Shown here: one piece after another, positions 20,843 through 62,687 of the stretch
How the letters are laid out: every line of letters starts with the position of its first letter
Numbering within the stretch: position 1 is the first letter of the stretch
Assembly (NCBI GenBank): GCA_963770895.1
Contig: CAVYRF010000002.1
Location: forward strand, 4,448,001 to 4,512,000
Reading direction: 5' to 3'
DNA length: 64,000 bases
From: an uncultured Acidobacteriota bacterium
GTDB taxonomy: Bacteria; Acidobacteriota; Thermoanaerobaculia; Multivoradales; UBA5704
Program-made: the position numbers and the translations under genes
The notes under the pieces: generated by a model
The model's input: the letters and a program-made list of their open reading frames with translations, nothing else
Databases searched by the model: none
Told to the model about the DNA's origin: nothing

Positions 20843-20854
20843 GTAGACCGCGAC

Positions 20855-20925: not shown

Positions 20926-20935
20926 CGCCGCGTTA

Positions 20936-21074
20936 GCCGCCGGCGTCGGTCGCTCTAACAAGAAGGGCGGAAAAGCGGGGTGGGATTGGCGCATCGCCGT
21001 CCGAACTCATCGGGGGCAAGCCGCCGGGACGTCTCCGCGGAAACGTTGACGGCTGCCGGCGGGCCAGGGCGCAC
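20936..21074 (+). repeat. Degenerate direct repeat, copy 2
   Basis: Co-linear match to 15699-15834, as described for copy 1. Confidence 0.85.
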
Positions 21075-25405: not shown

Positions 25406-25416
25406 CGGCGCCTCGC

Positions 25417-26139: not shown

Positions 26140-26152
26140 GAGGTCTGGCCGA

Positions 26153-29071: not shown

Positions 29072-31904
<2,833 letters not shown>

Positions 31905-31924
<20 letters not shown>

Positions 31925-41894: not shown

Positions 41895-44800
41895 TCAGCT
41901 GCCGAGCAGGCGGCGGAGGCTGGCTGCCAGGGCTGCCACGGCGGGTGGGCGGACGATCGAGTAGTGGTCGCCCGGCAGGGTCTGGATCTCGGTGCCGGCG
42001 CCGGCGAGCGCGGCCCAGGCGTCCGCGGGGTGGGTGCGGGCGCGGCCGGCGGCCGCGGTGGAGCGCCGGGATGCCAGCAGCAGGGTGAGCGGGCCGGGGG
42101 CGGCGACGGGGCGGTAGCGGTCGAGCGCCCGGCGCGTGGTCTGGAAGAGGGCGAACAGGCGCTCCACCTCGCCGGCCGCGAGCTCGGCCGGCAGCAGGCC
42201 GGCGCTGTGCGCGGCATCGACCAGGCGGGACAGGGGGACGTCCGCGGCGAAGGTGGCGTCGAGCCGGGCGAGCTGTGCCGCGCCGCCGGACACCAGGCAG
42301 AGGTCGCGCAGGAATTCCTTTTTGAGCTGCGCCGCGGCGGTCGCCCGCGGCGCCGCGGCGCGCCGGAGCGCGGCGGGATCGATCAGCACCAGAGGCTGGA
42401 CGGGGCGCCCGGCGGCGCGCAGCTGGCGCGCCATCTCGTAGGCGATGGCGCCGCCCAGCGACCAGCCGCCCAGGGCGTAGGGGCGGGGCGGCGCCCCGGG
42501 CGCGGCTGGCGGCGGCAGCGCCGCCACGTAGTGGGCGGCCAGCGTTTCGATCGTCGGCTCGGGCCCCAGGTCCACAAGCTCGGGCAGCTGCAAGCCGTAG
42601 AACGGCTGCGCGGGGCCCAGGGCGCGGGCCAGCTCGGCGTAGCACAGGACGTTGCCGCCGGCGGGATGGACGCAGAACAGGGGCCGCACCGGAGCCGCCG
42701 GCGCGTCGGCCGGCGCCGGGCCGGCGGCGGGGGTCAGCTCGACCAGGGCGGTGCGGCGCGCCGGTGTGGCCTGGGCGTCGGTTTGCAGCAGGGCGGCCAG
42801 GCCGGCGACCGTGGGGGCGCGCAGCAGCGCGGCCAGGGGCAGGTCGCGTCCGAAGGTGTCGCGAATCCGCGCCGCCAGGCGCAGGGCGAGCAGCGAGTGG
42901 CCGCCGAGGGCGAAGAAGTTGTCGTCGACGCCCACCGCCGGGCAGGCCAGGACGGCGCGGAAGAGGTCCGCCAGGGCGTGCTCGGCCGGCGTGCGCGGCA
43001 GCGCTCGGACACCGCCGTCGCCGCCGTCGCCGGCTGCCGGCGAGGGATCGGGCAGCGCCTTGCGGTCCAGCTTGCCGTTGGCGTTGAGCGGCAGGGCGTC
43101 GATGAGCATGGTTTCGGCCGGCACCATGTAGGCGGGAAGCCTGGCCGCCAGGGCCTGGCGCAGCTCGGCGAGGAGCGCCGTGCCGGCGGCGCCGGCGGCG
43201 CGCTCCGGCCGCGCCACCACGTAGCCCACCAGGCGATCGTCGCCGCCGCGGTCGCGCACCGCCGCCGCCGCCGCCCGCACGTCCGGGTGGGCGGCGAGCG
43301 CCGCCTCGATCTCGCCCAGCTCGATGCGAAAGCCGCGCACCTTGACCTGGCCGTCGAGGCGCCCCAGGAACTCGACCACGCCGTCGGCGCGCTGGCGGGC
43401 CAGGTCGCCGGTGCGGTAGAGGCGGCTGCCTGCCTCGTCGGGCGAGGCGAAGGGGTTGGGCACGAACGCCGCGGCGGTCAGCTCCGGCCGCCCCAGGTAG
43501 CCGCGCGCCAGGCAGGAGCCGGCGATGCACAGCTCGCCGGACGCGCCGGGCGGCACCGCGCTCAGCGCGCGGTCGAGCAGGTGGAGGCTGGCGCCGGCGA
43601 TCGGCCGGCCGAGCGGCACGGTCTGGCCCGGCGACTCGGCGCCGCAGAGCCATTCGGAGACCGACACGGCCGCCTCGGTGGGGCCGTAGCGCGCGACGAG
43701 CGCCGGCGCCGGCTGGGCCATGGCGGCGTGGTAGCGCGGCGGCAGGTCGCCGGGCACGCGGTCGCCGCCGGTCACCAGGCGGCGCAGCCAGCGGTTGGCG
43801 CGGAACGCGGGCTCGGCGAGCAGCACCGGCCAGAGCGCCGGCGGCAGGGTGAGGTTGGTCACCCGCTCGCCGGCGAGCAGGCTGGCGAGCGCGCCGGCCT
43901 CCTGGTGCCGCTCGGGCGGCACCACCAGCACGGCGCCCCCCATCCACAGCGGCGCGAAGATCTCCACCACCGAGATGTCGAAGGCGAGCCGCGTGCGCTG
44001 GAGCACGCGCGCTCCCGGCGCCAGGTCGGCGGCGACCTGGTAGCGCAGGCGGTTGACCACGGCGCGGTGTGACACCACGACGCCCTTGGGCCTGCCCGTC
44101 GAGCCGGAGGTGTACAGCACGTAGGCCGGGTGGTCGGGGTGCGGCTCCCCCGCCGCGGCGGCAGCGGCCGCCGCGGTTGGCCGGGGAGGCCGCGGGCGCC
44201 GGCCCGGCGCCGGCAGGGCGGCCGGCGCGCCGGGCCGGTCGAGCGGCACGGCGCGGGCGGCGGCGCCAAAGCGCCCGGCCAGCGGCTGGTCGGCCAGGAC
44301 CAGCCGCACTCCGGCGTCGGCCGCCATGCCCGCCAGGCGCTCGGCGGGCAGGGTCGGGTCGAGCGGCAGGTAGGCGCCGCCCGCCTTCAGCACCGCCAGC
44401 AGCGCCACGATGAGCGCGAACGACGGCTCGCCGCAGATGCCGACGACCTGCTCCGGGCCGACCCCCAGCCGGCGCAGCTGCGACGCCAGGCGCTCGACGC
44501 GGCCGGCCAGCTGGCCGTAGCGCAGCGTGCGCCCGCGCCGTCCGTTGCCGGCGGCCGCGGCGCCGCATTCGACCAGCGCCACCGCCTGCGGATGGCGCGC
44601 CGCGTGCCGCTCGAACGGCTGGTGCACCAGGTCGTCGCCGCCGGCGGCCCAGGCGGAGGAGTTCCATTCGATCGTCACCTGGTGCCGCTCGGCGGGGAAG
44701 AGCAGCGGCAGGTCGTGGGTGCGCGCGCCGCCGCCGCCGGCGGCGGCCAGGCCCGCGAGCAGGTTGCACAGGTGTCCGGCCAGGCGTTCGACGGTCGCCG

Positions 44801-47800
44801 GCTCGAACAGGTCGGCACGGTACTCCAGGCCGCCGGCCAGGTCGCCGCCCGTCTCGCGCAGCGCCAGGGTGAGGTCGAAGCGCGCCGCGAGCGTCGGGGC
44901 CGGCATCTCGGCGAGGCGCAGGCCGGCGACGGCGGGCAGCGCGGGCGGCGCCTGCTGCAGGGCGAGCATCGCCTGGAACAGCGGCGTCCGCGACAGGTCG
45001 CGAACCGGCTGCAGGTCGCCGACCAGCTGTTCGAACGGCAGCTCCTGGTGGGCGTAGGCGTCGAGCGCGGTGGCGCGCACCCGCTGCAGCAGCTCGCCGA
45101 TCGCCGGGTTGCCGCCCAGGTCGAGGCGCAGCACCAGGGTGTTGACGAAAAAGCCGACCAGCCCTGCGGTCGCCGGGTGGCCGCGGCCGGCGACCGGCGT
45201 GCCCAGGGTGAGGTCGTGCTGGCCGCTGTAGCGGCCCAGCAGCAGGCCGAATCCGGCGGTGAGCGCCATGAACAGGGTGACGTTCTGGTCGCGGCAGAGC
45301 CGCCCCAGTGCGGCGGCGAGGGGGCGGGAGACGGCCAGGGGACGCACCGCCCCGCGTCCGCTCGGCACGGCGGGGCGCGGCCGGTCGGTCGCCAGCTGCA
45401 GCGGCGGGGCGCCGGCCAGGCGGCGGCGCCAGAAGTCCAGCTCGCCGGCGATCACGGCGGCGGAGAGGCGGCGGCGCTGCCAGGCGGCAAAGTCGGCGTA
45501 CTGGATCGCCAGCTCCGGCAGGCGCGCGGCGGCGGGGCTGACCGCCGCCAGGGCCTGGTACTGCACCGCCAGCTCGTGCACCAGCAGGCGGATCGACCAG
45601 CCGTCGCTGACGATGTGGTGCATCGCCAGCAGCAGCACGTGCTCGCCGTCCGCCAGGCGCAGCAGCGCCGCCCGCAGCAGCGGCGCGCGGCGCAGGTCGA
45701 AGGGACGCCGGCCGAAGGTGACCGCCAGCCGCTCGGCTTCGCGGCGCGCGAGGCGCCGTGCCGCGGCCAGGTCCACCAGCGGCAGGGCGAGCCGGGCGTC
45801 GTCGTCGATCACCTGCACGGCGTCGCCGTCCGCGGTGGCGCGGAACGCGGTGCGCAGCGATTCGTGGCGGCGCAGGCAGGCGGCCAGGCTGCCGGCCAGC
45901 GCCGCGGGCGACAGCGGGCCGTGCAGCGACACCGCCATCGCCAGGTTGTAGATGGCGTTGCCGGGCGCGAGCCGCTCCAGGAACCACAGCCGCTGCTGCG
46001 CGAACGACGGCGCCATCTCGGCTCTGGGCGCGCTGCGCGCCAGGCGCGGGATGGCGTCGCCGGCGCGGCCGTCCGCCAGGCGCGCCGCCAGCTCCGCCGG
46101 CGTCGGCGCCTCGAACAGGGTGCGGATCGGCAGCTCGCGGCCGAGCTCGGCGGCGACGGCGGCGATCAACCGCATGCCGAGCAGCGAGTGGCCTCCCAGC
46201 TCGAAGAAGTTGTCGTGGATGCCGACGGCGGCGACGCCGAGGAGGCGGCCGAAGATCTCGACCAGGCGCGCCTCGGCAGCGGTGCGCGCGGCCGCCCGCG
46301 GCGCCGCCGGGGCGGCGGGGGTGCCGGCGGCAGGGTCGGCGGCCAGGCGGGCCAGCGCGCGGCGGTCGAGCTTGCCGGTCGGCGTGCGCGGCAGCGCGGC
46401 GAGCTCGACGACGGTCGCCGGCACCATGTACTCCGGCAGGCTGCGCCGCAAGGCTCGCCGCAGGTCGGCGGCGGCGATGGTGGCACCGGCGCGCGGGGTG
46501 ACGCAGGCGGCCAGCTGCCAGCCGCCGTCGCGCGCCTCGATCGGCACCACCGCGGCTTCGCGCACCTCCGGCAGGGCGGCCAGGCGGGCTTCCACTTCCG
46601 CCGGCTCGACGCGGAAGCCGCGGATCTTGCACTGGCGGTCGGCGCGCCCGGCGAAGGCGACCTCGCCGTCAGGCAGGAAACGGCCCAGGTCGCCGGTGAG
46701 GTACAGCCGCTCGCCGGGCACGCCGCCCAGCGGGCAGGGGGCAAACTTCTCCGCCGTGAGCGCGGCGTCGTCCAGGTAGCCGAGCGCCAGGTGGGGGCTG
46801 CGCATGACGATCTGGCCCAGCTCGCCGATGCCGGCCAGGTCGCCGTGGCGGCCGCAGACCAGCAGCTGCGCGTCCTGCATGCCGCGGCCGAGCGGCAGCA
46901 CCTGGTGCGCGCCGCGGCGGTCGCCGCCCGCCTCCAGCGCGTCGGGGTCCGCCACGTGGTAGGCGAGCGCCCGCTGGGTTTCGGTGGCGCCGTACAGGTT
47001 GAGGCAGACCGCCCGCGGCGCCAGGCGGCGGATGCGCGCGGCGTCGCGGCGCGCCAGCGCTTCGCCGATCCACATCACGCAGCGCAGGTCGGGCAGCGGC
47101 GCCACGGCGCCGCCCGGCGGCGGCTCCGCGATCACCTGCGACAGCGCCGGCGTGAGGTTGGCGACGGTGATCCGCGCCGTCGCCATCCAGGCGGCCAGGC
47201 GGCCCGGTTGGGTGATGGCGTCGGCATCGGGGATGACGATCGCGGCCCCCAGGCAGAGCGGCGTGAAGATCTCGCGTTGCAGCGGGTCGTGCGGCAGCGC
47301 CGACAGCATGGCGAAGCGGTCGGCCGCCGACAGGCCGAAGCGCTGCCGCATCCACGGCAGGAAGTGGGTCAGCGAGCCGTGGCGGCCGAGGATGCCCTTG
47401 GGGGTGCCGGTCGAGCCGGAGGTGAAGCCGATGCACGCCAGGTCGTCGGCGCCGGGCTGCCGTTGCCGCGGCGCGCCGGCGGCGCGCGGCGCGATGGGCG
47501 GCTGTGCCGCGAGCCAGGCCCGCAGCGCCGCGGCGCCGCCCCGCGGCAGCACCCAGCGCGGACAGCCGGCGGCGGCGAGCCACGCCGCCACGTCCGGCGG
47601 CGGCTCGCCGGCGGCGGCCAGTCCCAGCCAGGCGCGCGGTTGCGCCAGGCGCAGGATCGTCAGCTGGCGCGCCGGCGGATAGGCGGGATCGAGGATGAAG
47701 AACGCGGCGCCCGCCGCGAACGTCGCCAGCAGCGCCGGCACCAGCGGTGCGCTGCGGTGGGCGTAGATCGCCACCCGGTCGCCGCCGCCGACGCCTGCCG

Positions 47801-50800
47801 CGGCGAGCCGCAGCGCCAGCAGGCGGGCGGCGTCGTGGACCTCGCCGCGGCTCCAGGTGGCGGCGCCGTCCTCGATCGCCGGCCGGTCGGGGTCGCGCCG
47901 CGACTGCTGGGCGAACAGCTGGTCGACCGCGCCGTGCCAGGTGGCGTCCAGCGCCTGCGCCGGGTCGGCGGGGTCGGGCAGCACGGCCGCGGCGCCGGCG
48001 GTGACCAGCGACAGCCGCGCGATCGCTGCGTCGGGGTGCGCCGCGGCCTGGGCGACGACCGCCGCGATCTGCGCCAGCAGGTCCGTCATGCGCGGCGCGT
48101 CGAACAGGTCGGCGTTGTACACCAGCTCGATCGCGATCGCGCCGTCGTCGCCGGGCGGGCGATCGTCGACGTAGAACGTCAGGTCGAACTTGGCGCGCAC
48201 CTCGGGCAGCGGCAGGGTGGCGAGGCGCAGGCCGGTCAGGCGGATCTCGCCCGGCGGCAGGTTGAGCAGGTTGAGCATCACCTGGAAGAGCGGCGTCCGC
48301 GCCAGGTCGCGCTCCGGGCGGAGCTCTGCGAGCAGCGCTTCGAACGGCACGTCCTGGTGGGCGTAGGCGCCCAGCGCGGCGGTGCGGGCCCGTCCCAGCA
48401 GGGTGCGGAAGCTCGGTTCGCCGGAGAGGTCGGCGCGCAGCACCAGGGTGTTGAGGAAGCAGCCGATGAGGGCTTCGGTTTCGACCTGGCGGCGGCCGGC
48501 GACCGGCGCGCCGACGGCGAAGTCGAGCTGGCCGCTGTGGCGGTGCAGCACGACTTCCAGCGCGGCGAGCAGGCCCATGAACAGCGTGGCGCCTTCGCCG
48601 CGGCAGAGGCCGCGCAGGCGCCGGGCGAGATCGGGGTCCAGGCGCAGCTCGCCGCGGCCGCCGCGGTAGGTCTGTGCGGCCGGGCGTGGGCGGTCGGTGG
48701 GCAGGTCCAGGTCCAGGGCCGCCAGGCGGTCGCCGGCCGGGTCCGCCAGCTGGCGGCGCCAGTAGGCCAGCTCGCCGCGCCGCGCGCCGGCCAGGGCGGC
48801 GCGCTGCCAGATGGCGAAGTCGGCGTATTGGATCGGCAGCGGCGGCAGGGTCGGCGCGCGGCGCCGGCGCAGCGCGTCGTACGACTCCGCCAGCTCGCGC
48901 ACGAAGACGCTCGCCGACCAGCCGTCGGCGGCGACGTGGTGCACCACGGCGACGAAGCGGTGCCGCTCCGCCGCCTGGCGCAGCAGCAGGGTTGCGAGCA
49001 GCGGGCCGCGTTGCAGGTCGAGGCGGCGCCCGGCCAGCGCCGCGGTCAGGCGCACGGCCTCCGCCGCGCGCGCCGCGGACGGCAGCGCCGCCAGGTCGGC
49101 GAGCGGCAGCGGCGCGGCGTCCGGAGGCGGCGCGACGCGCTGCACCGGCACGCCGGCGGCGACGGCGAAGGTGGTGCGCAGCGATTCGTGGCGGCGGACC
49201 ACGTGGTGCAGGGCGCCGGCGAGCGCCGGCACGTCGAGCGCGCCGGCCAGCTCGACGGCGAGCGGCATGTTGTAGGTGGGGTCGCCGGGGTCGAGGCGAT
49301 CGAGGAACCACAGGCGCTCCTGGGCGAACGACAGCGGCAGCTCGACGCCTGGGCGGCGCGGGGCGGCGACCAGCGGTGCCGGGGCGGCGCCGCCGCCGGC
49401 CGGGCCGGCGCGCAGCGCCGCGTCGAGCTGCGCCGCGACGGCCGCCACCGTCGGGCGTTCGAACAGGTCGCGCAGCGGCAGCTCCACGGCGCAGCTGCGC
49501 CGCAGGCGGGACACGGCGCGGGTGGCGAGCAGCGAGTGGCCGCCCAGGGCGAAGAAGTCGTCGTGGCGGCCCACGTGGTCGCGCCCCAGGAGCTCGCACC
49601 ACACCGCCGCCACCAGGGCCTCCCACGGGCCGGCGGGCTCGTCGTGGCGGCGCGCGCGGCCGGCGCCGTCGAGGGCGTCGAGGGCGTCGGCGGCGGGGGC
49701 CGCGTCGCCCTCCAGGGCGATCAGGCCGCGCAGGCCGGCCTCGACCCCGGCGGCGGGCGCGGCGGCGCCCGCGGTCCCCTCTGCGTGGTGTGCGACCGGC
49801 GGGGAGCCGGGCGCGCGGGCCGTGCCGGCGGCGGCGCGCGTCAGGGCGGCGCGGTCGAGCTTGCCGTGGGCGTTGCGCGGCAGCGCGTCCAGAGCGAAGA
49901 AGCGCGCCGGGACCATGTGCTCGGGGAGGCGCCGGCGCAGCCAGCGGCGCAGGTTCATGCCGCGCGCGGCGGCGGCCGTGGCGGGCACCACGAAGGCCGC
50001 CAGCGCCGCGGCGCCGGCGGCCGGCGCCGTCACCACCGCCACCTCGCGCACGCCGCCGTGGGCCGCGAGCGCGGCTTCGATCTCCGCCGGCTCGACGCGG
50101 AAGCCGCGGATCTTCACCTGGCGGTCGAGGCGGCCGAGAAATTCCAGCTGACCGTCCGGCCGCCAGCGCCCGCGGTCGCCGGTGCGGTAGAGGCGCGCGC
50201 CGGCGCCGCCCAGCGGGTCGGGCACGAACCGCGCCGCGGTGCGGGCGGGCTCGGACAGGTAGCCGCGCGCCACGCCGGCGCCGCCCAGGGCGATCTCGCC
50301 GGCGACGCCGGCGGCTGCCGCGGCGCCCCACCCGTCGAGCACCCGCAGCACCACGCCGGCGAGCGGGCGGCCCAGCGGCACGGAGCCGGGCGCCGCGCCG
50401 GTTGCGGTCGCCGCGGGCGTCGCCGGCGCCGCGGCGACGCGATGCACGGTCGCCACGACGGTTGCCTCGGTGGGACCGTAGGTGTTGAACAGCGCCACGC
50501 GGCCGCCGAAGCGCCGCTGCCACTGCGCCACGCGGGCCGGCAGCACGCGCTCGCCGCCCAGCACCACGGCGCGGACGCTGGCCGGCAGGCCGTCGCCGTC
50601 CGCGGCCGTGGCGGCCTGACAGATCTCGTGCCACCAGGCGGTGGGCAGCGTCAGCAGGGTGACGGCCTGCTCGCGGCAGCGATCCAGAAAGCTGGCGGCG
50701 GCGCGGCGCATCGGATCGCTTGCCACCACCAGCGTGGCGCCGCTGGCCAGCGCCGGAAAGATCTCCTCGACGCTCAGGTCGAAGCCGGGGGAGGCGAAGT

Positions 50801-54400: not shown

Positions 54401-57400
54401 GCGAGCCGGCGCTGGGCCAGCAGCACGTGGGCGCCGCCGTCGGCCAGCATGAAGCGCAGGCGCTCGGGCGGGTAGCCCGGATCGAGCGGCAGGTAGGCGC
54501 CGCCCGCCTTGAGGATGGCGACCAGGCCGACCGTGGCGGCGACCGACCGTTCGGCGCAGATCGCCGCCACCGTCTCAGGCCCCACGCCCCAGCGCCGCAG
54601 CTGCCGCGCCATCTGGTTGGCGGCGCCGTTGAGCGCGCCGAAGCTGAGGCAGTCGCCGGCCGCGTCGGCCACGGCGATCGCCTGCGGGCTGCGCCGCGCC
54701 TGCTCTTCGATCAGCGCGTGCAGGCAGCGCGGGCCGCCGCCGGCCGCGACCCCCCGGCGCTGCCAGTCTTCCCAGGCGACCTGGGTATCGTTCCACTCCA
54801 GCAGCTGCTGGCGATCGCTCGCACCGAGCAGCGGCACGTCGTCCAGGCAGCGGCGCGGGTCGCCGGCGAGCGCCTCGAGCAGCAGCCGGTAGTGCGCCGC
54901 CAGGCGCTTGATGGTGGCGGCGTCGAACAGGTCGCGGCTGTGCTCGAAGGTCAGCTCCAGGCCGGCGGCGGTGTCCACGGCTTGCAGCGAGAGGTCGAGC
55001 TTGGCCGTCGCGGTGTCGATCTCGCGCAGCTCCAGCTGGAGCGTGCCGCCGTCCGGCACGGCGATCGGCGCCACCCGGCGGTCGGCGGCGTTTTGCAGCA
55101 CCAGCAGGGCCTGCAACAGCGGCGCCGCGGCCAGGTCCCGCACCGGCGCCAGCTCCTCGACCAGCCTGTCGAAGGGCAGCTCCTGGTGCGCGAAGGCGTC
55201 CAGGCTCGCCTGGCGCACCCGCGCCAGCATCGCGCCCGCCGGCGGCCGGCCGGCGGTGCTGGCGCGCAGCGCGAGCGTGTTGACGAAGCAGCCGATCAGG
55301 CCTTCGATCTCCAGGCGGTCGCGGTTGGCGACGGGCGTGCCCACGACGACGTCCTGCTGGGCCGACCAGCGCGCCAGCAGGGCGGCGAAGGCCGCCAGCA
55401 GCGCCATGAACAGCGTCGCGCCGGCGCGCTGCGCCGCCTGGCGCACCTCGCCGGCGAGCGCCGGCGGCACGACGACCACCGTGCGCCCGCCGCGCAGGCT
55501 TTGCGCCGGCGGCCGCGGCCGATCGGCGGGCAGCGCCAGACGCGCCGGCGCCCCCGCCAGCGCCAGCCGCCAGTGGCGCAGCGCAGCCTCCAGCCGCTCG
55601 CCGGCCAGCTGGGCGCGCTGCCAGGCGGCATAGTCGACGTACTGCACCGGCAGCTCGGCCAGGGCGGGAGCCGCGGCGCCCGCCAGGGCGGGGTAGATGG
55701 CCGCCAGCTCGCGCAGGAAGACGCCGATGGACCAGCCGTCGCCCACGATGTGGTGCAGCACCAGGATCAATTGGTGATCGCACGCCCCCAGCCGCGCCAC
55801 CACGGTGCGCAGCAGCGGCCCGCGCGCCAGGTCGAAGGGTTGGCAGCCCAGCCGCGAGGCCAGCGCCTGCGCCGCGGCGGGCGCCGCCGTCTCCGCCGCC
55901 GCGAGGGCGGAGAGATCCACCAACGGCGTGGGCAGTGTGAAGTTCGCCAGCAGCTCTGACATCGGCTGTCCGGCGGCCGCCGGGTACGCGGTGCGCAGCA
56001 CCTGGTGGCGGCCGGCGATGGCGCGCAGGCTGGCGGCCAGCGCCGCCAGGTTCAGCGGGCCGCGCAGGTGGAGCGCCCCCGCCAGGTTGTAGGCGGCGCT
56101 GCCGGGCGCCAGCCGGTCGAGGAACCACAGGCGCTCCTGGGCGAACGACAGCGGCGGCGGCGCGGCCGGCAGCCGTCGCGGGATGGGCGCCGGCGCGTCC
56201 GGCAGGCGTTGGGCGAGGCGCGCCGCCAGCCGCCGCACGGTGGGATGCTCGAACTGCTCGCGCAGCGCCAGCTCGCCGCCGGTGGCCGCGCGCAGGCGCG
56301 CCGTCACCTGGGCGGCAAACAGCGACTGCCCGCCCAGGGCGAAGAAGTCGTCGTCGGCGCCGACGGGCGCGACCCCCAGGACCTGCTGCCAGATGCCGGC
56401 GATCAGCTGCTCCAGGCCGGGCCGCGGCGCGGCGAAGGCGGGGCGGTCGCCGTCCGCGCCGGGCGCCGGGCCGGGCAGCGCCTGGCGGTCCAGCTTGCCG
56501 CTGGCGGTGAGCGGCAGGGCGGCCAGCGCCACCACCTGCGCCGGGACCATGGCGGCGGGCAGGCGCGCCAGCAGCCACGAGCGCAGCGCGCCGGGGTCGA
56601 CCGTCGCGGCGCCGGGGGCGGGCACCACGAACGCCACCAGGCGGCGCGGCTCGCCGCGCGCCGCGACCGCTGCCGCGCCCACCGCCGGATGGCGCGCCAG
56701 CGCGGTTTCGATCTCGGCGGGCTCGATGCGTACGCCGCGGATCTTGAGCTGGAAATCGCCGCGTCCCAGGTAGTCGATCGCGCCGTCCGCCAGGTGCCGC
56801 GCCAGGTCGCCGGTGCGGTAGAGCCGGGCGCCGCCGCCGGCGAAGGGGTCGGGCACGAACTTTTCGGCGGTCAGGTCGGGCCGGCGCAGATAGCCGCGGG
56901 CGAGCTGCACGCCGCCGATGTGGAGCTCGCCCGCCACGCCCGCCGGCACCTGGCGCCCGGCCTTGTCGAGCAGGTGGATGCGGGTGTTGGCGACCGGCCG
57001 GCCGATCGGCACCAGCCGACGCGAGCCCGCCGGGTCGCAGGCCCAGGCGGTGACTTCGACCGCGGCCTCGGTCGGGCCGTAGAGGTTGTGCAGCGGCGCG
57101 CCCACCGCGGCGTGGAAGCGCTGCTGCAGGTCGTAGGGCAGCGCTTCGCCGCTCGCCAGCACGCGGCGCAGGTGGCGCCAGCGCGGCCCTGCCGCCGCCG
57201 GCGCCGCCGGCAGGGCCTCCACCGCGGCAAGGAACGAACGCAGCATCGCCGGCACGAAGTGGACGATGGTGACGTCGAGCCTGGCCAGGGCGTCGACCAG
57301 GTAGGCGTCGTCCAGGTGGCCGCCGGGGCGGGCCATGACCAGCTGGGCGCCGGCCGCGAGCGGCCAGAACAGCTCCCACACCGAAACGTCGAACCCCACC

Positions 57401-59907
57401 GGCGTCTTTTGCAGCACCCGGTCGGCCGGCGCTGCCGGCACGCCCGGCGGGGCTGCGGGTGACAGGGGGTGGCATCGCTCGGCCCAGCGCAGGCGGTTGA
57501 CGATGCCGCGATGGGTGTTCATGGCGCCCTTGGGCCGCCCGGTCGAGCCCGAGGTGAAGATCACGTAGGCGAGGTTTGCCGGCCCGGCGCCGTCGATCGG
57601 CGCCGCCACCGATGCCGCCGACGCCGCCGATGCCGCCGACGAGGCCGATGCCGGTGACGGCCAGGGCCGGGCGCCGCGGCGTGACCAGGGCGCGGCGGGG
57701 TCGTCGAGGGGCACCGTCGCGATGGCCGGCGTCCCCAGGCGCGCGGCAAGGCCGTCCTGGGCGACCGCCAGGGTCGCGCCCGCGTCCTCCAACATGAGGC
57801 GCAGCCGCTCCGCCGGCGCGTCGGGTTCGAGCGGCAGGTAGGCGCCGCCCGCCTTCAAGATGCCGAGGAGCCCCACCACCAGGGCGACCGACCGCTCGGC
57901 GCAGATCGGCACCACCGCGTCGGGCTGCACCCCCAGCTGCCGCAGGCGCTGCGCCAGCGCATCGGCGCGCGCGTCGAGCTCGCCATAGGTCAGGTGCGCC
58001 GGCGGCAGGCCGCCGGCCGGGTCGTCGACCACCGCCACCGCGTGCGGGGCGCGCCGCGCCTGCCGCTCGATCAGCTGGTGCAGGCAGCGGTCGGCGGCGG
58101 CCCAGGCGACCGCCGTGTCGTTGCCTTCGACCAGCTGCTGGCGCTCGGCGGCGGTCAGCAGCGGCAGCTGCGACAGCGGCGCCGCGCTGCCCGCGGGGGC
58201 GCCGCCGGGGCCGGCGGCCGCGGGGCTGGCGACCGCGGCGGCGAGCACCTGGAGGTGTCCGCCCAGGCGGCGGATGGTCGCGGCGTCGAACAGGTCGCGG
58301 TTGAACACCAGCGATGCGGCCACCGCGCCGTCGATCAGGGCCGTCGCCAGAGTGAGATCGAATTGGGCGGCGCGTTGCGGCAGGGCGACGCTCGCCAGCT
58401 CGATGCCGCCCAGGTCGAGACGCCCGCCGGTCGCTCCCAGCGCCACGGCCGCCAGCCCGCGCTCGCCGGCCGCGCCTTCGCGGTAGTGCACGAACATCAC
58501 CTGGAAGAGCGGCGAGCGGCTGGGATCGCGCTCGCCGCCCAGCCGCTCGGCGAGCCGCGCGAAGGGGTAGCGCTGGTGTGCCAGCGCCGCGATCACCGTG
58601 TCGCGCACCCGGCGCAGCAGCTCCGCGAAGGGCGGGTCGCCGGCGCAGTCGCCGACCGCCACCACCGGGTTCACAAGGTAGCCGACCAGGCCGTCCAGGC
58701 CGCGGTCGCCGCGGCCCGCCGTGGGCGTGCCCACGCGCACGGTCTCCTGGCCGCTGTGGCGGTGGAGCAGCGCCACCAACAGGGCGAGCAGGGTCATGAA
58801 GGGCGTCGCCCCCGTGCGTTCGCCCAGGGCGCGCAGGCGCGCGGTCGTGGCGGTGTCGATCGCCAGCGGCAGCGAGCCGCCGCGGGCCGTCTGCACCGGC
58901 GGCCGCGGCCGGTCGGCGGGCAGCGCCAGGGGCGGCGCCGTGGCTGGCAGGACGGCGCTCCAATACGCTTCGTCGGCGCGCCGGCGCGGTGCGTCGTCCT
59001 CCCAGCCCCGCTCCTGGGCGGCGAGCGCCCGGTGATAGGCGCCGGCGTCGAGCGGCGGCAGCGCGTCGCCGCGGTAGAGCGCTCCCAGGTCGCCGAGCAG
59101 GATGCCGAGCGAGCCGAAATCGGCGGCGACGTGGTGCACCGCGAGCGCCAGCCAGGGCGGCGCACCGGCGCGGCGGTAGACGGCGAGGCGCAGGAGCGGC
59201 CCGCGGCCGAGGTCGAAAGGCGTCTCCGCCCACTCGGCGAGGTGGGCGCGCAGGCGATCGTCGCTCCAGCCGCCGGCGTCCACCTCCGCGAGCTCGACAC
59301 CGGGCTCCGCATGGACCTCCTGGACGAAGGATTCGCCTTCCTGGACGAAAGCGCTGCGCAGCGGCGGATGGCGCGCCGCGACCGCCGCCAGCGCCCGCCG
59401 CAGCCGCGCCGCGTCCAGGCTGCCGCGCACCACCCGCGCCGCGCCGGCCAGGATGTAGGCCGGGTTGCCGGGGATCAGGCGGTCGAGCAGCAGCAGCGCC
59501 CGCTGGCCGGGCGAGGCCGGATACCGTGTCGCCGTCGGCGTCGGTGTCGCCGTCGGTATGGTGTCGGTGGCTGGGGCCGGCGCGGCTGGAGCCGCCGTGG
59601 GTCGGGCCGGCGTGGGTCGGGCCGCGAGTTTGGCCCGCTGCAGGCGCCGGTGCCGTGCGACCGCGGCTCGCAGCTCGGCCAGGGTCGGCCCTTCCAGCAG
59701 CTCGGCGATCGGCACCGCCACTCCCAGGTCCGTCTCGATGGCGCCGGCCAGCTCGGCGGCGGCGAGCGAGTCCAAACCCAGGGTGACGAGGGACCGGTCT
59801 TCCGGCAGCCGCGCGCCATCGATGCCAAGGGCGCGTCCCGCCAGCTCCGAAAGATGCGACGCCAGCACGGCGCGGCGCGGCCGCGCAACAGCACCGGGCG
59901 CTTTCAT
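51421..59907 (-). CDS. NRPS, 5' segment: T0-C1-A1-T1-C2-A2-T2-C3 (joins the 3' segment by removing 1 nt)
   Basis: LGLDSL carrier, HHVAADFGS, two Ser-type A domains, GGQS/GGHS, HHIVGDG, HHIVSDA. Translation becomes nonsense after AREWGEAPGGS. Confidence 0.93.
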
Positions 59908-60014
59908 AGTTGGATGCCTATATTATCATGCGGCAGCATGCGGACATTCCGGGCATCGGCCGGATCGTAGGTTGCCGACGACATCGCGCCGGCGCCGGCG
60001 TGGGGGGGAGACCT

Positions 60015-62687
60015 GTGGCGGAGCGGCAGCACCAGGAGGCGAGCGATGGGAGGGACGGCGAGGATCACCTGGTGCGCCTGCCGGGCGAGCAGTTTGCCGT
60101 GTGGACCTGGGCCTCGGTGCGGGGCGCCGGCTTTCCGATCGCCGATCTGCTGCAGCTGGGTAGCGAGGACGCCGCGGCGGCGGCCGATCGCGCGCTGACG
60201 GCGCAGGAGGCGCTGGCGGCGGCGCGGGAGGCGGGGCTGGCTGCCCTGGTCGAGGGTTTCGATCGCTGCCCGCCCCAGTTGCAGCCGCAGTGGCAGGCCG
60301 CCGGCCGCCAGCTGGCGAGGGGCCGGCTGCCGGCGCTGCCGCAGGCCGAGACCGCGGACTTCGCGGCGGCGTTCCAGGCCGCGGCGGCGGCAGGCGACGC
60401 CCACCTGCTGGCCTATGCCGCCGCGCGGCGCCGGCAGTCCGAGGTGCTGCGCCGCGCGGCGGGTGAGCCCAGGCTGCGCGAGGCGGTGACGTGGCAGAAT
60501 CGCCACGCCCTGGCCACGGCCTTCGATCCGCTGTTGCGCCAAGCGGCGGCCGGCGACGGCAGCGGCGATGGCGATGGCGCCGGGGCCAACAAGCAGACCC
60601 GCCGGCACGAGCAGCTGGTGGCGTCCTACCTGCACCGCTACTGCACCAAGAACGACACCATCGGCTTTTTCGGTCCGGTCGGCTGGGCGCGGGTCACGGA
60701 CGCGCCGGTTGCGATCGTCGCCCGTCCGGGGGCGCGGCTGGTCTCCCACCGCAGGGTGTTCTTCGAGACCTGGTGCATCGACGCGGTGGCCGAAGCCCTC
60801 GCCCGCGACCGGCCGCTGCGCCCCTGGCTCACGCCGCGGCAGCTGCCGTTCTTTGTCCTCCAGGGCAACCTGTACATCCCGTTCGCCGGGACGCCCAGCC
60901 AGCTGTCGCCGGCGGAACGCGCCGTCTTCGCCGCTTGCAGGGGACGCCAGACGGCGCTGGAGCTGGCGGCGCGGCTGACGGGCGATCCGGCGGCGGCCGC
61001 AGCCGGCAGCGACGGCGACGGCAAGCTGGACCCGGTGCTCGGGCTGGCGTCGGCGGCGGACGTGTTCGAGGTGCTGGAGAGTCTGGCGGCCAGAGGCATG
61101 ATCGTGTGGCAGATGGAAGTGCCGATGCACCTTGCCGGCGAAGAGGAGCTGGCGCGCATCGTGCGGCGGGTCGCAGACCCGGCGTTGCGCGAGCCGATGC
61201 TGGCCGAGATCGGCGAGCTGGTCGCCGCCCGCGATGCGGTGGCCGCGGCGGCGGGCGACGCCGACCGCCTGCTGGCGGCGTTGGAAGCGCTCGACGGCCG
61301 CTTCCAGCAGTGCACGGGCGGCGCGGCGCGGCGCCTGCCGGGGCAGACCTATGCCGGGCGCACGCTGGTCCACGAAGACTGCCGCCGCGATCTCGACGTC
61401 GAGATCGGCGCCGATTTTCTGGCGGCGCTGGGGCCGCCGCTGTCGCTCGTCCTGATGGGTGCGCGCTGGCTTTGCGAAGAGACGGCGCGGCGCTTTCGCG
61501 GCGAATTTCAGCGCGCCTACGGCGAGCTCTGCGCCGCCTCGGGCGCGACGGCGATCGGCCTGCTGCAGTTCCTGCAAAAGGTGGCGCCGGTGCTGCTCGC
61601 GCCCGGCTCCAGCCTGGTCGCCGCGGTCGCCGCCGAACACGAGCGGCGCTGGTCCGAGATCCTCGCCCTGCCGGCCGGCGAGCGGCGGGTGCAGCTCGCC
61701 GGCGAGCGCATCCAACCGCTGGTGGCCGAGGCGTTCCGGGCGAGCGGGCCGGGCTGGAGGCTGGCCAGGCATCACAGCCCCGACCTGCTGGTGCGCGCAG
61801 CCAGCGTCGAGGCGATCGGCCGCGGCGATTTCCAGGTCGTGCTGGGCGAAGTGCACCTGGCGACCAACACCCTGCGCAATGCGGTGCTGATCGCCCACCA
61901 CCCGCAGCCGCAGGACCTGTGGCGGGCGATGCTGCGCGACATCCCCGACCCCACGGTCATCCCCTGGCTGCCGCGGCGGCGCGACGGCCAGCCGCGCAAA
62001 AACCCGCTGGGCTTCCACGTCATCCCGCGCAGCGCCCGGCTGGAGCTGGGCCTGATCGGCGCCAAGGACCTGCGCCTGGCGCTCGACACCGACCCGCCCG
62101 GCGACCCGCACGCCACCACCCTGTTTCTGGGCGACTGCCTGGTGACCGAGCGCGGCGGCGCCCTGTCGGTGGTGACCCGCGACGGCTCGCAGTGCATGGA
62201 CGTCGTGGACTTCTGCGAGCTGGCCATCTCCGTGCACACGATCAACAGCTTCCGCCTGCTGTCGGGCCGGCCGCACACGCCGCGCATCGCCATCGACAAG
62301 CTGATCGTGCAGCGCGAGCTGTGGCGCGTGCCGCTGGCGGACATTCCTGTCGCCGCCGCGCGCCCCGGCGCCGATCGCTTCCTGGCGGCGCGCGCCTTCG
62401 TGCGGCGGCATCGCCTGCCGCGCTTCGTCTTCGTCGGCTCGCCCTACGAAAAAAAACCCTTCTGCGTGGACTTTGCCAGCCCGGCGGCGATCGAGATCTT
62501 CGCCCGCGCCTGCCGCGGCGCGCAGGAAAAAGGCGGCCCCGACGTGCAGATCGCCATCTCCGAGATGCTGCCCGAGCCGGAGCAGACCTGGCTGCCGGGC
62601 CCCCACGGCGAGCGCTACACCAGCGAGCTGCGCCTGGTCGCGGTCGATCGCGCCGGCCGCTCCGGAGCGACGGCTGGAAGCACCTGA
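60015..62687 (+). CDS. Stand-alone lantibiotic dehydratase N-terminal (small LanB / PEARL-like) aminoacyl-tRNA-dependent enzyme
   Basis: ~890 aa, VRGAGFP, REAVTWQN, YLHRYCTKNDTIGFFGP, HSPD, VLGEVH, PRIAID, EKKP..VDF, SEMLP, terminal SELR. No elimination domain. Confidence 0.88.
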   Translation: MAERQHQEASDGRDGEDHLVRLPGEQFAVWTWASVRGAGFPIADLLQLGSEDAAAAADRALTAQEALAAAREAGLAALVEGFDRCPPQLQPQWQAAGRQLARGRLPALPQAETADFAAAFQAAAAAGDAHLLAYAAARRRQSEVLRRAAGEPRLREAVTWQNRHALATAFDPLLRQAAAGDGSGDGDGAGANKQTRRHEQLVASYLHRYCTKNDTIGFFGPVGWARVTDAPVAIVARPGARLVSHRRVFFETWCIDAVAEALARDRPLRPWLTPRQLPFFVLQGNLYIPFAGTPSQLSPAERAVFAACRGRQTALELAARLTGDPAAAAAGSDGDGKLDPVLGLASAADVFEVLESLAARGMIVWQMEVPMHLAGEEELARIVRRVADPALREPMLAEIGELVAARDAVAAAAGDADRLLAALEALDGRFQQCTGGAARRLPGQTYAGRTLVHEDCRRDLDVEIGADFLAALGPPLSLVLMGARWLCEETARRFRGEFQRAYGELCAASGATAIGLLQFLQKVAPVLLAPGSSLVAAVAAEHERRWSEILALPAGERRVQLAGERIQPLVAEAFRASGPGWRLARHHSPDLLVRAASVEAIGRGDFQVVLGEVHLATNTLRNAVLIAHHPQPQDLWRAMLRDIPDPTVIPWLPRRRDGQPRKNPLGFHVIPRSARLELGLIGAKDLRLALDTDPPGDPHATTLFLGDCLVTERGGALSVVTRDGSQCMDVVDFCELAISVHTINSFRLLSGRPHTPRIAIDKLIVQRELWRVPLADIPVAAARPGADRFLAARAFVRRHRLPRFVFVGSPYEKKPFCVDFASPAAIEIFARACRGAQEKGGPDVQIAISEMLPEPEQTWLPGPHGERYTSELRLVAVDRAGRSGATAGST

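What the first reader, a model, noticed from the sequence alone, without database searches (positions are those of the whole stretch)
41895..62687. Giant NRPS head-to-head with a scaffold-less PEARL/small-LanB enzyme: candidate NRPS and aminoacyl-tRNA hybrid pathway
Seen: a 5-module NRPS and an ~890-aa LanB-N-only gene are divergent, 107 bp apart. No elimination domain, LanC or small scaffold ORF is adjacent. Established: LanB N-domains glutamylate Ser/Thr using Glu-tRNA, and PEARLs (TglB-type) use ATP and aa-tRNA to append a residue to a carboxylate of a ribosomal scaffold peptide. Small LanBs near NRPS genes have been noted by genome mining but, to my knowledge, are mostly uncharacterised. 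Inference: the substrate is the NRPS product. It could be extended at the TE-released C-terminus or at the acidic side chain from module 4, or O-aminoacylated on the Ser residues from modules 1-2.
Basis: partly seen in the sequence, partly recalled or inferred. Interest (0 to 1): 0.88.

Follow-up and report, generated by a model that had tools for sequence, protein, structure and literature searches.

The report
PEARL-like tRNA ligase beside NRPS
A soil bacterium's five-module peptide synthetase sits back-to-back with a stand-alone enzyme of the lantibiotic-dehydratase N-domain type that most likely adds an amino acid from a charged tRNA to the synthetase's product, a kind of pairing first characterised in 2024, so this is a new example and not a new principle.

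Summary
A T-C-A-T-(C-A-T)4-TE NRPS (59907 to 41895, minus strand) is divergent from a PF04738-only gene (60015/59928 to 62687). No PF14028 or LanC lies in the window.

The LanB-like protein belongs to a large, tight, cross-phylum clade that is tied to NRPSs:
- 56 of 80 homolog loci have C and A domains within 10 kb.
- At least 113 longer homologs are fused to NRPS or PKS modules (C-A-T-LanB, T-TE-LanB).
- 3 loci sit beside ureido-type C domains, as SnaE does.
- No recurrent elimination-domain partner was found.

The clade keeps an invariant C-terminal E-x-R (96/96). Three dehydratase-type comparators have E-x-V or E-x-L there. Published PEARLs use an E-x-R for ATP and carboxylate binding.

Best reading (0.55): a SnaE-like ATP- and aminoacyl-tRNA-dependent amide ligase acting on a carboxylate of the NRPS product, probably the TE-released C-terminus.

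The concept is already published (Yu and van der Donk 2024, about 2,000 such BGCs). This is a new member of a known kind, of moderate interest. Acceptor, amino acid and pathway integrity remain untested.

The parts
60015..62687 (+). Stand-alone LanB N-domain-only (PEARL-like) gene, 890 aa from GTG 60015. Alternative starts are ATG 59928 (919 aa) and TTG 59910 (925 aa).
   Evidence: PF04738 only, 2.8e-37, full profile. No NCBIfam hit. AF2 model has pLDDT 89.2. Best folds are TbtB 6EC7, MibB, GodF, MadB and NisB. Invariant R36, Y205, R208, D590, E612 and E871-x-R873.
59908..60014 (.). Divergent intergenic region (107 bp, or 20 bp if ATG 59928 is the start). It is locally AT-rich and has no FAAL gene, unlike the relative G021.
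   Evidence: Sequence read. No sigma-70-like match. G021 has a 667-aa FAAL gene between LanB and the NRPS.
59653..59877 (-). N-terminal carrier domain T0 (ACP-like, motif GLDSL) of the NRPS.
   Evidence: The same GLDSL-type carrier follows a FAAL in relatives.
51446..59907 (-). NRPS part A (reading frame 1): T0, C1 (VHHVAADFGS), A1, T1, C2 (LHHIVGDGWS), A2, T2, C3 (VHHIVSDAWS). About 2824 aa up to the frame change.
   Evidence: The end coordinate is approximate, because the shift lies somewhere in 51410-51445.
51410..51445 (-). +1 frame change in the C3-A3 linker, within C5, C6 and C4 runs. It is either an assembly error or a true mutation.
   Evidence: Reads do not cover the site. It is one of 5 frame switches among 230 C-to-A junctions in the genome.
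41895..51409 (-). NRPS part B (reading frame 2): A3, T3, C4 (VHHVAADGWS), A4 (HDP-type A4 motif), T4, C5 (MHHIVSDGWS), A5, T5, TE. About 3172 aa. The stop is at 41897-41895.
41937..42686 (-). Terminal thioesterase domain.
   Evidence: PF00975, 4.1e-29. tblastn self-map.

Best explanation
The 890-aa protein is a stand-alone PEARL-like member of the LanB N-domain superfamily. It works with the adjacent NRPS and not with a ribosomal peptide.

Inferred mechanism, by analogy with TglB, BhaB and SnaE:
1. It phosphorylates a free carboxylate of the NRPS product with ATP.
2. The alpha-amine of an aminoacyl-tRNA attacks the acyl phosphate.
3. The tRNA ester is hydrolysed, leaving the product longer by one amide-linked residue.

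The NRPS is of lipopeptide type. An ACP and a starter-like C domain are followed by five amino-acid modules and a TE.

The most likely acceptor is the C-terminal carboxylate freed by the TE. A side-chain carboxylate from module 4 is the alternative.

Shown here: domain content, fold, family-wide linkage and fusion to NRPS modules, absence of elimination and LanC partners, and the conserved E-x-R.

Inferred: ATP and tRNA dependence, the acceptor, the amino acid added, and that the pathway is active in this strain.
For: 1. PF04738 only, with the full-length profile. LanB glutamylation-domain fold, with TbtB, MibB, GodF, MadB and NisB as best matches.
2. No PF14028 or LanC in the window. PF14028 is not among the 25 most frequent Pfam families in 167 neighbour ORFs of the 80 homolog loci.
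3. Linkage to NRPSs. Of 80 homolog loci, 68 have an NRPS-domain hit and 56 have both C and A. Of the 44 loci of at least 20 kb, 36 have both.
4. Fusions. 124 longer homologs were found. Of the 120 listed, 113 carry PF04738 together with NRPS or PKS domains. The three fusions scanned read C-A-T-LanB, KS-AT-T-TE-LanB and C-A-T-C-A-T-TE-LanB.
5. Ureido-type C domains (EHHxxHDG), the SnaA signature, stand next to the homolog in L024, L045 and L050 (signature from PMC11212132).
6. Conserved residues.
   - E871-x-R873 is invariant (96 of 96), as are E612 and D590 (99 of 99 each).
   - At the R873 position the genome's own full LanB has V, MibB has V and a divergent split candidate has L.
   - Published PEARL ATP and carboxylate residues are E813/R815, D558 and E575 in BhaB-Trp, and E801/R803 and E542 in TglB (PMC11962472, passages).
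7. Tandem paralogs (2-4 copies) occur in L016, L029, L044, L052, L061, L074, G002, G021 and G025. Multi-PEARL pathways show the same pattern.
8. GC content drops from about 0.78 to 0.66 just past the gene, so the NRPS and the LanB-like gene form one compositional unit.
Against: 1. None of the window's five C domains has the ureido signature, so SnaE's source of a free carboxylate is absent and the acceptor is only guessed.
2. The E-x-R and acidic residues were matched to PEARL residues by position and published numbering, not by an alignment with TglB, BhaB or SnaE. I could not retrieve those sequences. Fig. S12 of PMC11212132 (supplement closed) may bear on this.
3. Most fusions are C-A-T-LanB with no TE. 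No free C-terminal carboxylate is obvious there, so the chemistry on the assembly line may differ.
4. In the window's own 12-member clade (support 0.89), three loci have no NRPS within about 10-18 kb: G011:C3, G011:C1 and L016. Outside that clade, G025 has four tandem copies and no NRPS nearby.
5. The NRPS is frameshifted and lacks the cis FAAL of its relatives, so the pathway may be inactive here.
6. No close ortholog context could be examined. The best relatives are 64-65% identical and are metagenome proteins whose contigs could not be fetched.
Confidence: 0.55

Rival explanations
1. On-line tRNA-dependent step. The enzyme acts on carrier-bound intermediates. It might aminoacylate a side chain or N-terminus of a T-bound residue. 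It might instead pass its aminoacyl- or peptidyl-tRNA adduct to a phosphopantetheine arm, such as the FAAL-less N-terminal ACP here, so that tRNA-borne residues enter the assembly line.
For: Most fused homologs are C-A-T-LanB, with the LanB-like domain directly after a T domain and the next gene starting with C. A-less C-T modules stand beside the gene in L025, L029, L034 and L041. The window's T0 has no cis loading enzyme. For SnaE, action on T-bound intermediates was left open (PMC11212132).
Against: T0 is the same GLDSL-type ACP that follows a FAAL in relatives (G021, Sorangium, L001). Its normal loader is therefore a FAAL, and an orphan FAAL-like gene exists at G000:C2:910065. Apparent T-initiated NRPSs in several loci were edge artefacts. 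I know of no precedent for transfer from aa-tRNA to a carrier thiol by this fold (recalled, not searched).
Confidence: 0.13
2. LanB-type chemistry without ATP. The enzyme transfers glutamate (or another residue) from its tRNA to Ser hydroxyls introduced by modules 1-2. This gives an O-acyl branch or, after elimination by another catalyst, dehydroalanine.
For: The A1 and A2 codes DVWHLSLVEK and DVWHMSLVDK resemble the Ser code as I recall it. The fold and the shared tRNA-binding residues (R36, Y205, R208) are common to glutamylating LanBs. SbnA/SbnB-like diaminopropionate genes recur in 8-11 homolog loci, hinting at nucleophilic side chains.
Against: There is no elimination domain in the window and no recurrent one beside homologs. 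The clade-invariant R873 and E612 are absent from the genome's own full LanB, the one dehydratase-type comparator aligned at both positions; MibB and the 939-aa split candidate were read at the R873 position only and also lack the Arg. The clade lies very far from the genome's bona fide LanB.
Confidence: 0.1
3. Decaying or uncoupled locus. The NRPS is a pseudogene (true frameshift, FAAL lost), so no hybrid product is made in this strain. The LanB-like gene is a remnant or serves another substrate.
For: There is a single +1 frame change with no restart codon. Within-module frame switches are rare in this genome (5 of 230 C-to-A and 2 of 212 A-to-T junctions), so assembly indels are uncommon. 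The FAAL gene found in G021 and fused in Sorangium is absent. Some clade members lack an NRPS neighbour.
Against: The shift lies in homopolymer C runs, a typical assembly-error site. Everything else in 18 kb is open, with GC3 of 0.96, although long open frames are weak evidence at 78% GC. The LanB-like ORF is intact. This reading concerns activity in this strain, not the function of the pair.
Confidence: 0.15
4. Classical scaffold-dependent PEARL whose ribosomal carrier peptide is encoded elsewhere. On this reading the adjacency to the NRPS is coincidental in a genome that is 13% NRPS.
For: NRPS clusters cover about 1.08 Mb of 8.16 Mb. G011 (two loci), L016 and G025 homologs are not next to NRPSs.
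Against: Family-wide co-occurrence and covalent fusions to NRPS or PKS modules. Only 1 of about 29 large clusters carries the gene, and it abuts the NRPS start. The NRPS and the gene share a GC-rich block. No conserved small partner was found beside the NRPS-less homologs.
Confidence: 0.07

Closest known systems
SnaE of the sna (threopeptin) NRPS-PKS cluster, Stackebrandtia nassauensis (Yu and van der Donk 2024, PMC11212132; read: abstract, Introduction, Results part 1, Discussion)
   Same: Annotated as a lantibiotic dehydratase, with PF04738 and no elimination domain. Encoded in an NRPS cluster with no precursor peptide. Proposed ATP- and aa-tRNA-dependent amide formation on a carboxylate that the assembly line cannot extend. 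Three homolog loci of the window's clade sit beside EHHxxHDG (ureido) C domains, as SnaE does.
   Different: The window's NRPS has no ureido C domain and no PKS. It is a five-module, ACP-initiated, TE-terminated line in an acidobacterial (Holophagales-like) genome and not an actinobacterial one. The acceptor must be another carboxylate. Sequence relatedness to SnaE itself was not tested because the sequence could not be retrieved.
RiPP-type PEARLs (LanB_C): TglB, BhaB-Ala/Trp, AmmB (PMC11962472 passages; PMC12945691 passages; PMC12054794 first part)
   Same: LanB N-domain only. Conserved N-terminal Arg, a Y..R tRNA-CCA motif and a C-terminal E-x-R plus acidic residues, consistent with the published ATP-grasp-like site. 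Tandem paralogs occur in some loci.
   Different: No ribosomal scaffold peptide was found. The clade is linked or fused to NRPS or PKS modules. Residue equivalence was inferred from numbering and position only.
Split glutamylation domains TbtB (6EC7/6EC8) and GodF (9JHQ) of thiopeptide and goadsporin pathways
   Same: Best structural matches (Foldseek E 4.4e-24, TM 0.60/0.66). TbtB is the only PDB sequence hit (4.9e-12). These are stand-alone N-domain proteins of similar length.
   Different: They glutamylate Ser/Thr without ATP and work with a separate PF14028 elimination protein on ribosomal peptides. No such partner is near the window gene or recurrent near its homologs. About 16% identity.
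Full-length class I dehydratases NisB, MibB and MadB, and the genome's own 1177-aa LanB (G000:C2:5.18 Mb, with LanC beside it)
   Same: Same N-domain fold. hhalign probability 97.8% to the genome's own LanB. Shared R36, Y205, R208, D590, R757, R767 and E871.
   Different: They carry the elimination domain. At the R873 position they have V (own LanB and MibB). The own LanB also lacks E612, H614, E768, E812 and K814. There is a very long branch to the window's clade.
FAAL-ACP-C(starter) lipoinitiation of NRPS lipopeptides
   Same: T0 with GLDSL and C1 with HHxxxDF match the units that follow a FAAL in L023, L029, L034, L036, L037, L060, L070, G021 and Sorangium.
   Different: No FAAL is encoded beside the window's NRPS. 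The only stand-alone FAAL-like gene is 3.6 Mb away and contains a TAG.

Membership tests
LanB N-terminal (glutamylation/PEARL) domain superfamily, PF04738 | Sequence match to PF04738 above the curated cut-off, over the whole domain | tested here: met
   128.7 bits against a cut-off of 28, profile positions 3-648 of 649.
LanB N-terminal (glutamylation/PEARL) domain superfamily, PF04738 | Fold of solved glutamylation domains | tested here: met
   AF2 pLDDT 89.2, pTM 0.89. Foldseek: TbtB E 4.4e-24, followed by MibB, GodF, MadB and NisB.
Class I lanthipeptide dehydratase (LanB_A, or split LanB_B with partner) | Elimination domain PF14028 in the same protein or in a neighbouring gene | tested here: not met
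   No PF14028 in the protein. The only genomic matches are 670 kb and 1.17 Mb away. PF14028 is not among the top-25 families of 167 neighbour ORFs of homologs.
Class I lanthipeptide dehydratase (LanB_A, or split LanB_B with partner) | LanC cyclase and a precursor peptide in the cluster | tested here: not met
   14 LanC-like matches in the genome, none in the window. The flanking gaps of 107 and 47 nt cannot hold a precursor gene. A distant precursor cannot be excluded.
PEARL (peptide aminoacyl-tRNA ligase, LanB_C) | N-domain only, with no co-occurring elimination domain | tested here: met
PEARL (peptide aminoacyl-tRNA ligase, LanB_C) | ATP-grasp-like residues for carboxylate phosphorylation (BhaB-Trp E813/R815, D558, E575; TglB E801/R803, E542) | tested here: inconclusive
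   Clade-invariant E871-x-R873, E612 and D590. R873 is replaced by V, V and L in three dehydratase-type comparators. Equivalence to PEARL residues rests on published numbering, not on an alignment with a PEARL.
PEARL (peptide aminoacyl-tRNA ligase, LanB_C) | ATP- and aminoacyl-tRNA-dependent amide bond formation | not testable with these tools
   Needs a biochemical assay.
PEARL (peptide aminoacyl-tRNA ligase, LanB_C) | Ribosomal scaffold (carrier) peptide substrate | tested here: not met
   None adjacent. No conserved small partner beside NRPS-less homologs. The clade is linked or fused to NRPS or PKS modules instead.
NRPS-associated PEARL-like amidation enzymes (SnaE type) | Encoded in an NRPS/PKS cluster, annotated as lantibiotic dehydratase, with no precursor peptide | tested here: met
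   (source names).
NRPS-associated PEARL-like amidation enzymes (SnaE type) | Ureido-forming C domain (EHHxxHDG) that leaves a free carboxylate | tested here: not met
   The window's C motifs are VHHVAADFG, LHHIVGDGW, VHHIVSDAW, VHHVAADGW and MHHIVSDGW. The signature is present beside homologs in 3 of 80 loci.
NRPS-associated PEARL-like amidation enzymes (SnaE type) | Sequence or phylogenetic grouping with SnaE (ADD43711.1) | not tested
   The sequence was not retrievable with the tools. The supplements of PMC11212132 are closed.
FAAL-ACP-C lipoinitiation NRPS | ACP and starter-like C domain at the N-terminus | tested here: met
   T0 GLDSL and C1 HHxxxDF, as in FAAL-led relatives.
FAAL-ACP-C lipoinitiation NRPS | FAAL fused or adjacent | tested here: not met
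   The NRPS ORF starts at T0 and the LanB-like gene follows directly. FAAL is present in G021 and fused in Sorangium and L001.

The most novel reading that the evidence does not exclude
The clade could be an in-line, tRNA-fed unit of assembly lines and not a post-release tailoring enzyme. After ATP activation and attack by aminoacyl-tRNA, the tRNA ester would be resolved by a neighbouring phosphopantetheine thiol instead of by water. Ribosome-charged amino acids, or N-acyl-aminoacyl units, would then be loaded onto carrier domains that lack an A domain or a FAAL. This would explain three things: the dominant C-A-T-LanB fusions, the A-less C-T modules beside several homologs, and this window's FAAL-less N-terminal ACP. 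Nothing here excludes it. Nothing beyond architecture supports it.
Probability: 0.1. Interest if true: 0.8.

Novelty: new member of a known kind. Interest (0 to 1): 0.4.

Why it matters
PEARL-like enzymes give peptide pathways a second way to make amide bonds, independent of thioesters and using amino acids charged by the cell's own tRNA synthetases. Only one NRPS-linked example (SnaE) has been characterised, and it depends on a ureido chain reversal.

This locus and its clade show three things:
- The pairing is widespread outside Actinobacteria, in Acidobacteriota, Chloroflexota and Sorangium.
- It occurs without ureido domains.
- It is often hard-wired as C-A-T-LanB or T-TE-LanB fusions.

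The range of acceptors is therefore wider than shown so far. A TE-LanB fusion or the intact Sorangium cluster would be a direct test of C-terminal extension of released nonribosomal peptides. The clade-invariant E-x-R, against E-x-V/L in dehydratases, is a simple candidate marker for re-annotating 'lantibiotic dehydratases' in NRPS clusters.

Tried and rejected
1. Reads over the frameshift. One study's soil-metagenome runs hold parts of the stretch (share 0.18-0.23). When laid, their contigs match 51570-51900 exactly but none covers 51410-51477. So there is no verdict on error versus mutation.

2. Closest relatives' contexts. Two metagenome scans were run (with the protein, with alignment A4). 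The first found nothing and the second found only relatives of 36-37% identity.

3. The idea that the LanB-like enzyme loads the orphan N-terminal T domain. It is weakened because T0 is the FAAL-partnered ACP type. Several apparently T-initiated NRPSs were artefacts of locus edges. It is kept only as a low-probability rival and as the novel case.

4. The idea that the stand-alone PF14028 protein (G000:C2:3.34 Mb) is the missing elimination partner. It is unlikely, for three reasons. It lies 1.17 Mb away. It sits two genes from a 939-aa protein whose C-terminal 200 residues align weakly with the LanB N-domain end (hhalign probability 59%, E 9.2e-5). That protein has E-x-L at the E-x-R spot.

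5. Searches that gave nothing useful:
   - NCBIfam gave no family for the protein.
   - Rfam found nothing in the window.
   - The promoter scan found no sigma-70-like site, and the terminator-like hits lie inside the gene.
   - A PDB sequence search with the clade profile found only TbtB.

6. A conserved partner beside the NRPS-less homologs (G011) was sought by tblastn against all held loci and the window. None was found.

7. Direct comparison with SnaE, TglB, BhaB and AmmB was not possible, because no tool returned those sequences. Supplementary files (for example Fig. S12 and Table S2 of PMC11212132) are closed and may already show where such NRPS-linked enzymes fall.

8. The sister pairing of the window protein with the Sorangium proteins has no support (0.07). 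Only the 12-member clade is supported (0.89).

9. Literature. Searches found no characterised NRPS-linked LanB-like enzyme other than SnaE. This holds only for the held library.


Full report
**What is there**

The window is GC-rich (0.66-0.79). From 59907 down to 41895 on the minus strand lies an NRPS. Pfam finds 6 PP-binding, 5 condensation, 5 adenylation and 1 thioesterase domains. My tblastn self-map places them as T0-C1-A1-T1-C2-A2-T2-C3-A3-T3-C4-A4-T4-C5-A5-T5-TE.

The gene is not one open frame in this assembly:
- The frame that starts at ATG 59907 is meaningful up to '...LAREWGEAP' and then turns into Arg/Pro/Gly noise.
- The second frame is meaningful from '...GLHQLVEAQ' onward.
- The change is a +1 shift within C5, C6 and C4 runs at about 51410-51445.
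- The second frame has no ATG, GTG or TTG between its upstream stop and 51053. This is therefore a frameshift inside the C3-A3 linker and not a gene boundary.

Divergent from the NRPS start lies an ORF at 59910..62687 on the plus strand:
- GTG 60015 (890 aa, preceded by GGGGGAGA) fits the homologs' N-termini. ATG 59928 gives the 919-aa form held in the protein database.
- It matches only PF04738, over the whole profile, and has no NCBIfam family.

The flanks look unrelated to the pair:
- Downstream of the NRPS is a CHAT plus FGE-sulfatase protein.
- Downstream of the LanB-like gene is a TPR protein, in DNA whose GC falls to 0.66.
- Further genes are kinases, EF-G, an M16 peptidase and a glycosyltransferase.

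The NRPS and the LanB-like gene thus look like a two-gene, GC-rich unit.

**Partners expected for a lanthipeptide dehydratase are absent**
- In the whole genome (8.16 Mb, 3 contigs) PF14028 matches twice. One match is in a full 1177-aa LanB at C2:5.18 Mb, which has a LanC-like gene beside it. The other is in a 460-aa stand-alone protein at C2:3.34 Mb.
- These lie 670 kb and 1.17 Mb from the window gene.
- The stand-alone one lies two genes from a 939-aa protein whose C-terminal part aligns weakly with the end of the LanB N-domain. It probably has its own partner.
- None of the 14 LanC-like matches is in the window.

**The protein's family**
- A database search gave 1044 hits among the 8000 candidates scored. 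After the self hit and six metagenome proteins at 57-65% identity comes a large set of about 860-aa, PF04738-only proteins at about 40% identity over 97% of the length. Where sources name them, they are called 'lantibiotic dehydratase' of Acidobacteriota and Chloroflexota.
- A scan of species-representative genomes found 538 relatives. The best 80 loci were kept, with up to 10 kb of flank.
- Using the window's own C, A, T and TE domains as tblastn probes, 68 of 80 loci have at least one NRPS-domain hit and 56 have both C and A.
- Of the 12 loci without any hit, 8 are shorter than 8 kb.
- Among the 44 loci of at least 20 kb, 36 have both C and A.
- In 58 loci NRPS domains are co-directional with the gene. 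In 33 loci the nearest NRPS domain is within 1.5 kb.
- I ran no background control.
- Other recurrent neighbours are typical NRPS accessories: MacB/FtsX and ABC exporters, MFS, TauD, type II thioesterase, PPTase, halogenase, and SbnA/SbnB-like (PALP plus ornithine-cyclodeaminase family) pairs. PF14028 is not among the 25 most frequent families in either batch. The batches held 83 and 84 ORFs of 200-620 aa, taken from 251 candidate ORFs of at least 150 aa.

**Fusions**
- Among longer proteins, 124 match. Of the 120 listed, 113 carry PF04738 together with NRPS or PKS domains. The other 7 list only NRPS domains in the precomputed column.
- Three were scanned: C-A-T-LanB (Micromonospora, 2001 aa), KS-AT-T-TE-LanB (2160 aa) and C-A-T-C-A-T-TE-LanB (3170 aa).
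- This is Rosetta-stone evidence that the clade works with carrier-protein assembly lines.
- The TE-LanB order is what one would expect if the domain acts on the acid released by the TE.
- The much commoner C-A-T-LanB order suggests that at least some members act on tethered intermediates.

**Relation to the published case**

Yu and van der Donk (PMC11212132; I read the abstract, Introduction, Results part 1 and Discussion) reported the following:
- SnaE, an annotated lantibiotic dehydratase of an NRPS-PKS cluster, adds Thr to the carboxylate left by a ureido-forming C domain.
- That C domain carries the signature EHHxxHDG.
- About 2,000 NRPS/PKS clusters encode such enzymes, mostly in Actinobacteria, and some are fused to T or TE domains.
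[quoted passage not shown] The window's five C domains do not have the signature. I could not obtain SnaE's sequence, so its place relative to this clade is untested.

**PEARL or dehydratase chemistry**
- The AF2 model (pLDDT 89.2) matches split glutamylation domains best (TbtB, GodF), then MibB, MadB and NisB. No PEARL structure is in the PDB.
- A tree of 99 clade members, with the genome's own LanB as outgroup, shows a compact clade on a very long branch.
- Within the clade, R36, Y205, R208, D590, E612, H614, R757, R767, K814, E850 and E871-x-R873 are invariant (95-99 sequences with a residue at each position).
- The genome's own full LanB shares R36, Y205, R208, D590, R757, R767 and E871. 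It has G, A, N and V at E612, H614, K814 and R873.
- MibB also reads E-I-V where the clade reads E-L-R. The 939-aa split candidate reads E-L-L.
- Passages of Ramos-Figueroa et al. (PMC11962472) name the ATP-grasp-like site of PEARLs: E813 and R815 (TglB E801, R803), D558 (TglB E542) and E575. R815 contacts the gamma-phosphate and the substrate carboxylate.
- The same passages name R34, Y205 and R208 for the amino-acid/tRNA end.
- The clade's E871-x-R873 lies 17 residues from the C-terminus and beyond the end of the PF04738 match. Together with E612 and D590 it fits that description.
- This is a match by position and numbering, not by alignment, so I rate it as suggestive.

**The NRPS**
- T0 carries GLDSL and C1 carries HHxxxDF. 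The same pair follows a FAAL-type adenylating domain in many homolog loci.
- In the same-family genome G021 a separate 667-aa FAAL gene (PF00501 plus PF23024) lies between the divergent LanB-like gene and an NRPS that starts with the same ACP-C pair.
- In Sorangium and L001 the FAAL is fused, just beyond the edge of my loci.
- The window therefore has a lipoinitiation-type NRPS without its FAAL. A stand-alone FAAL-like gene exists 3.6 Mb away, with a TAG inside and no NRPS around it.
- Specificity codes, placed by motif anchors that I recall from memory, are:
  - A1 DVWHLSLVEK
  - A2 DVWHMSLVDK
  - A3 DLETVGTVTK
  - A4 DPRNMILRAK
  - A5 DIVTVGLVSK
- The first two resemble the Ser code as I recall it. 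A4 resembles the fungal aminoadipate code, with an Arg at position 239, so an acidic residue is possible. These are weak calls.

**Is the pathway alive**
- The genome holds about 256 A, 277 C, 288 T and 28 TE domain hits, in 37 groups spanning 1.08 Mb.
- Frame switches occur at 5 of 230 C-to-A junctions and 2 of 212 A-to-T junctions. Indels are therefore rare in this assembly, yet the window's shift sits in homopolymer runs.
- Public reads did not cover the site. I leave it open.

**Counter-examples**
- The window protein falls in a 12-member clade (support 0.89) with two Sorangium proteins and Holophagales-type proteins. Its pairing with the Sorangium proteins is unsupported (0.07).
- In that clade the window, Sorangium (two strains), L060/G024 and G021 have NRPSs beside the gene.
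- G011:C3, G011:C1 and L016 do not, within about 10-18 kb. L008 is too short to tell.
- Outside that clade, G025 has four tandem copies with no NRPS nearby. They lie next to housekeeping genes and two GluRS-like genes, identified from N-terminal motifs only.

**Verdict**

The functional link between the enzyme and NRPS machinery is well supported at family level. PEARL-type ligation onto a carboxylate of the NRPS product is the best-supported mechanism (0.55). The acceptor, the amino acid added and the activity in this strain are unknown. Because SnaE and the roughly 2,000-cluster census are in print, this is a new member of a known kind and not a new system.

Noticed in passing
window 51410-51445 (minus strand): +1 frame change inside the NRPS C3-A3 linker, in runs of C. 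It splits the 18-kb gene into two overlapping ORFs (46669..59907 and 41895..51053 as listed).
   Followed up: partly
whole genome G000 (window = C2:4448001-4512000): Very large NRPS complement: about 256 A, 277 C, 288 T and 28 TE domain hits in 37 groups spanning 1.08 Mb, about 13% of an 8.16-Mb genome. Only this cluster carries a LanB-like gene.
   Followed up: partly
G000:C2:3334840-3340623 (locus L116 4841-10624): Candidate highly divergent split LanB. A 939-aa protein has no Pfam hit, but its C-terminus aligns weakly with the end of the LanB N-domain. It is followed by a JmjC-domain protein and a convergent 460-aa stand-alone PF14028 protein.
   Followed up: partly
G025:C9:118555-131062 (loci L103/L104): Four tandem LanB N-domain-only genes (811-905 aa) in one operon with no NRPS within about 10-18 kb. 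They follow a 725-aa protein that starts like a CoA-binding acyl-CoA synthetase. Two GluRS-like genes lie within 15 kb. These identifications rest on N-terminal motifs only.
   Followed up: no
loci L001, L020, L023, L025, L029, L034, L036, L037, L042, L066, L070 and others: SbnA-like (PALP) and SbnB-like (ornithine cyclodeaminase family) genes, the pair known for making 2,3-diaminopropionate, recur next to the LanB-like gene. By clustering, OCD occurs in 11 loci and PALP in 8. OTCase-like genes occur in 7 loci.
   Followed up: partly
loci L055, L065, L068, L069, L072, L073, L077, L079, L012, L076, L080; proteins P0126-P0244: Actinobacterial C-A-T-LanB fusion proteins of about 1,900-2,000 aa. 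Their C domain has an unusual HHxxxDGR motif and their T domain reads GGNSL. They are followed by a gene starting with a C domain.
   Followed up: partly
loci L025, L029, L034, L041: A-less C-T modules next to the LanB-like gene (about 1.4 kb from C to T). In L029 and L034 the C-like domain reads ECHAIQDGWS instead of HHxxxDG.
   Followed up: no
window 39640-41700 (minus strand): Fusion protein with a CHAT (caspase-like) domain and an FGE-sulfatase domain, directly downstream of the NRPS stop. Its start codon is unclear.
   Followed up: no
window 21233-26163 (minus strand) and 29072-31924 (plus strand): Large Ser/Thr protein kinases. One has a long TPR array. The first shows two overlapping frames near 25400-25900, which may be another frame change or two genes.
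   Followed up: no
window 16000-21000: Stretch of lower GC (0.60-0.61 against about 0.70) with weak codon-position signal. Its content was not examined.
   Followed up: no
G000:C2:910065-911909: Stand-alone FAAL-like gene. It is the best match in the genome (62% identity) to the FAAL of the G021 LanB/NRPS cluster. It has one in-frame TAG and no NRPS domain within 30 kb.
   Followed up: partly
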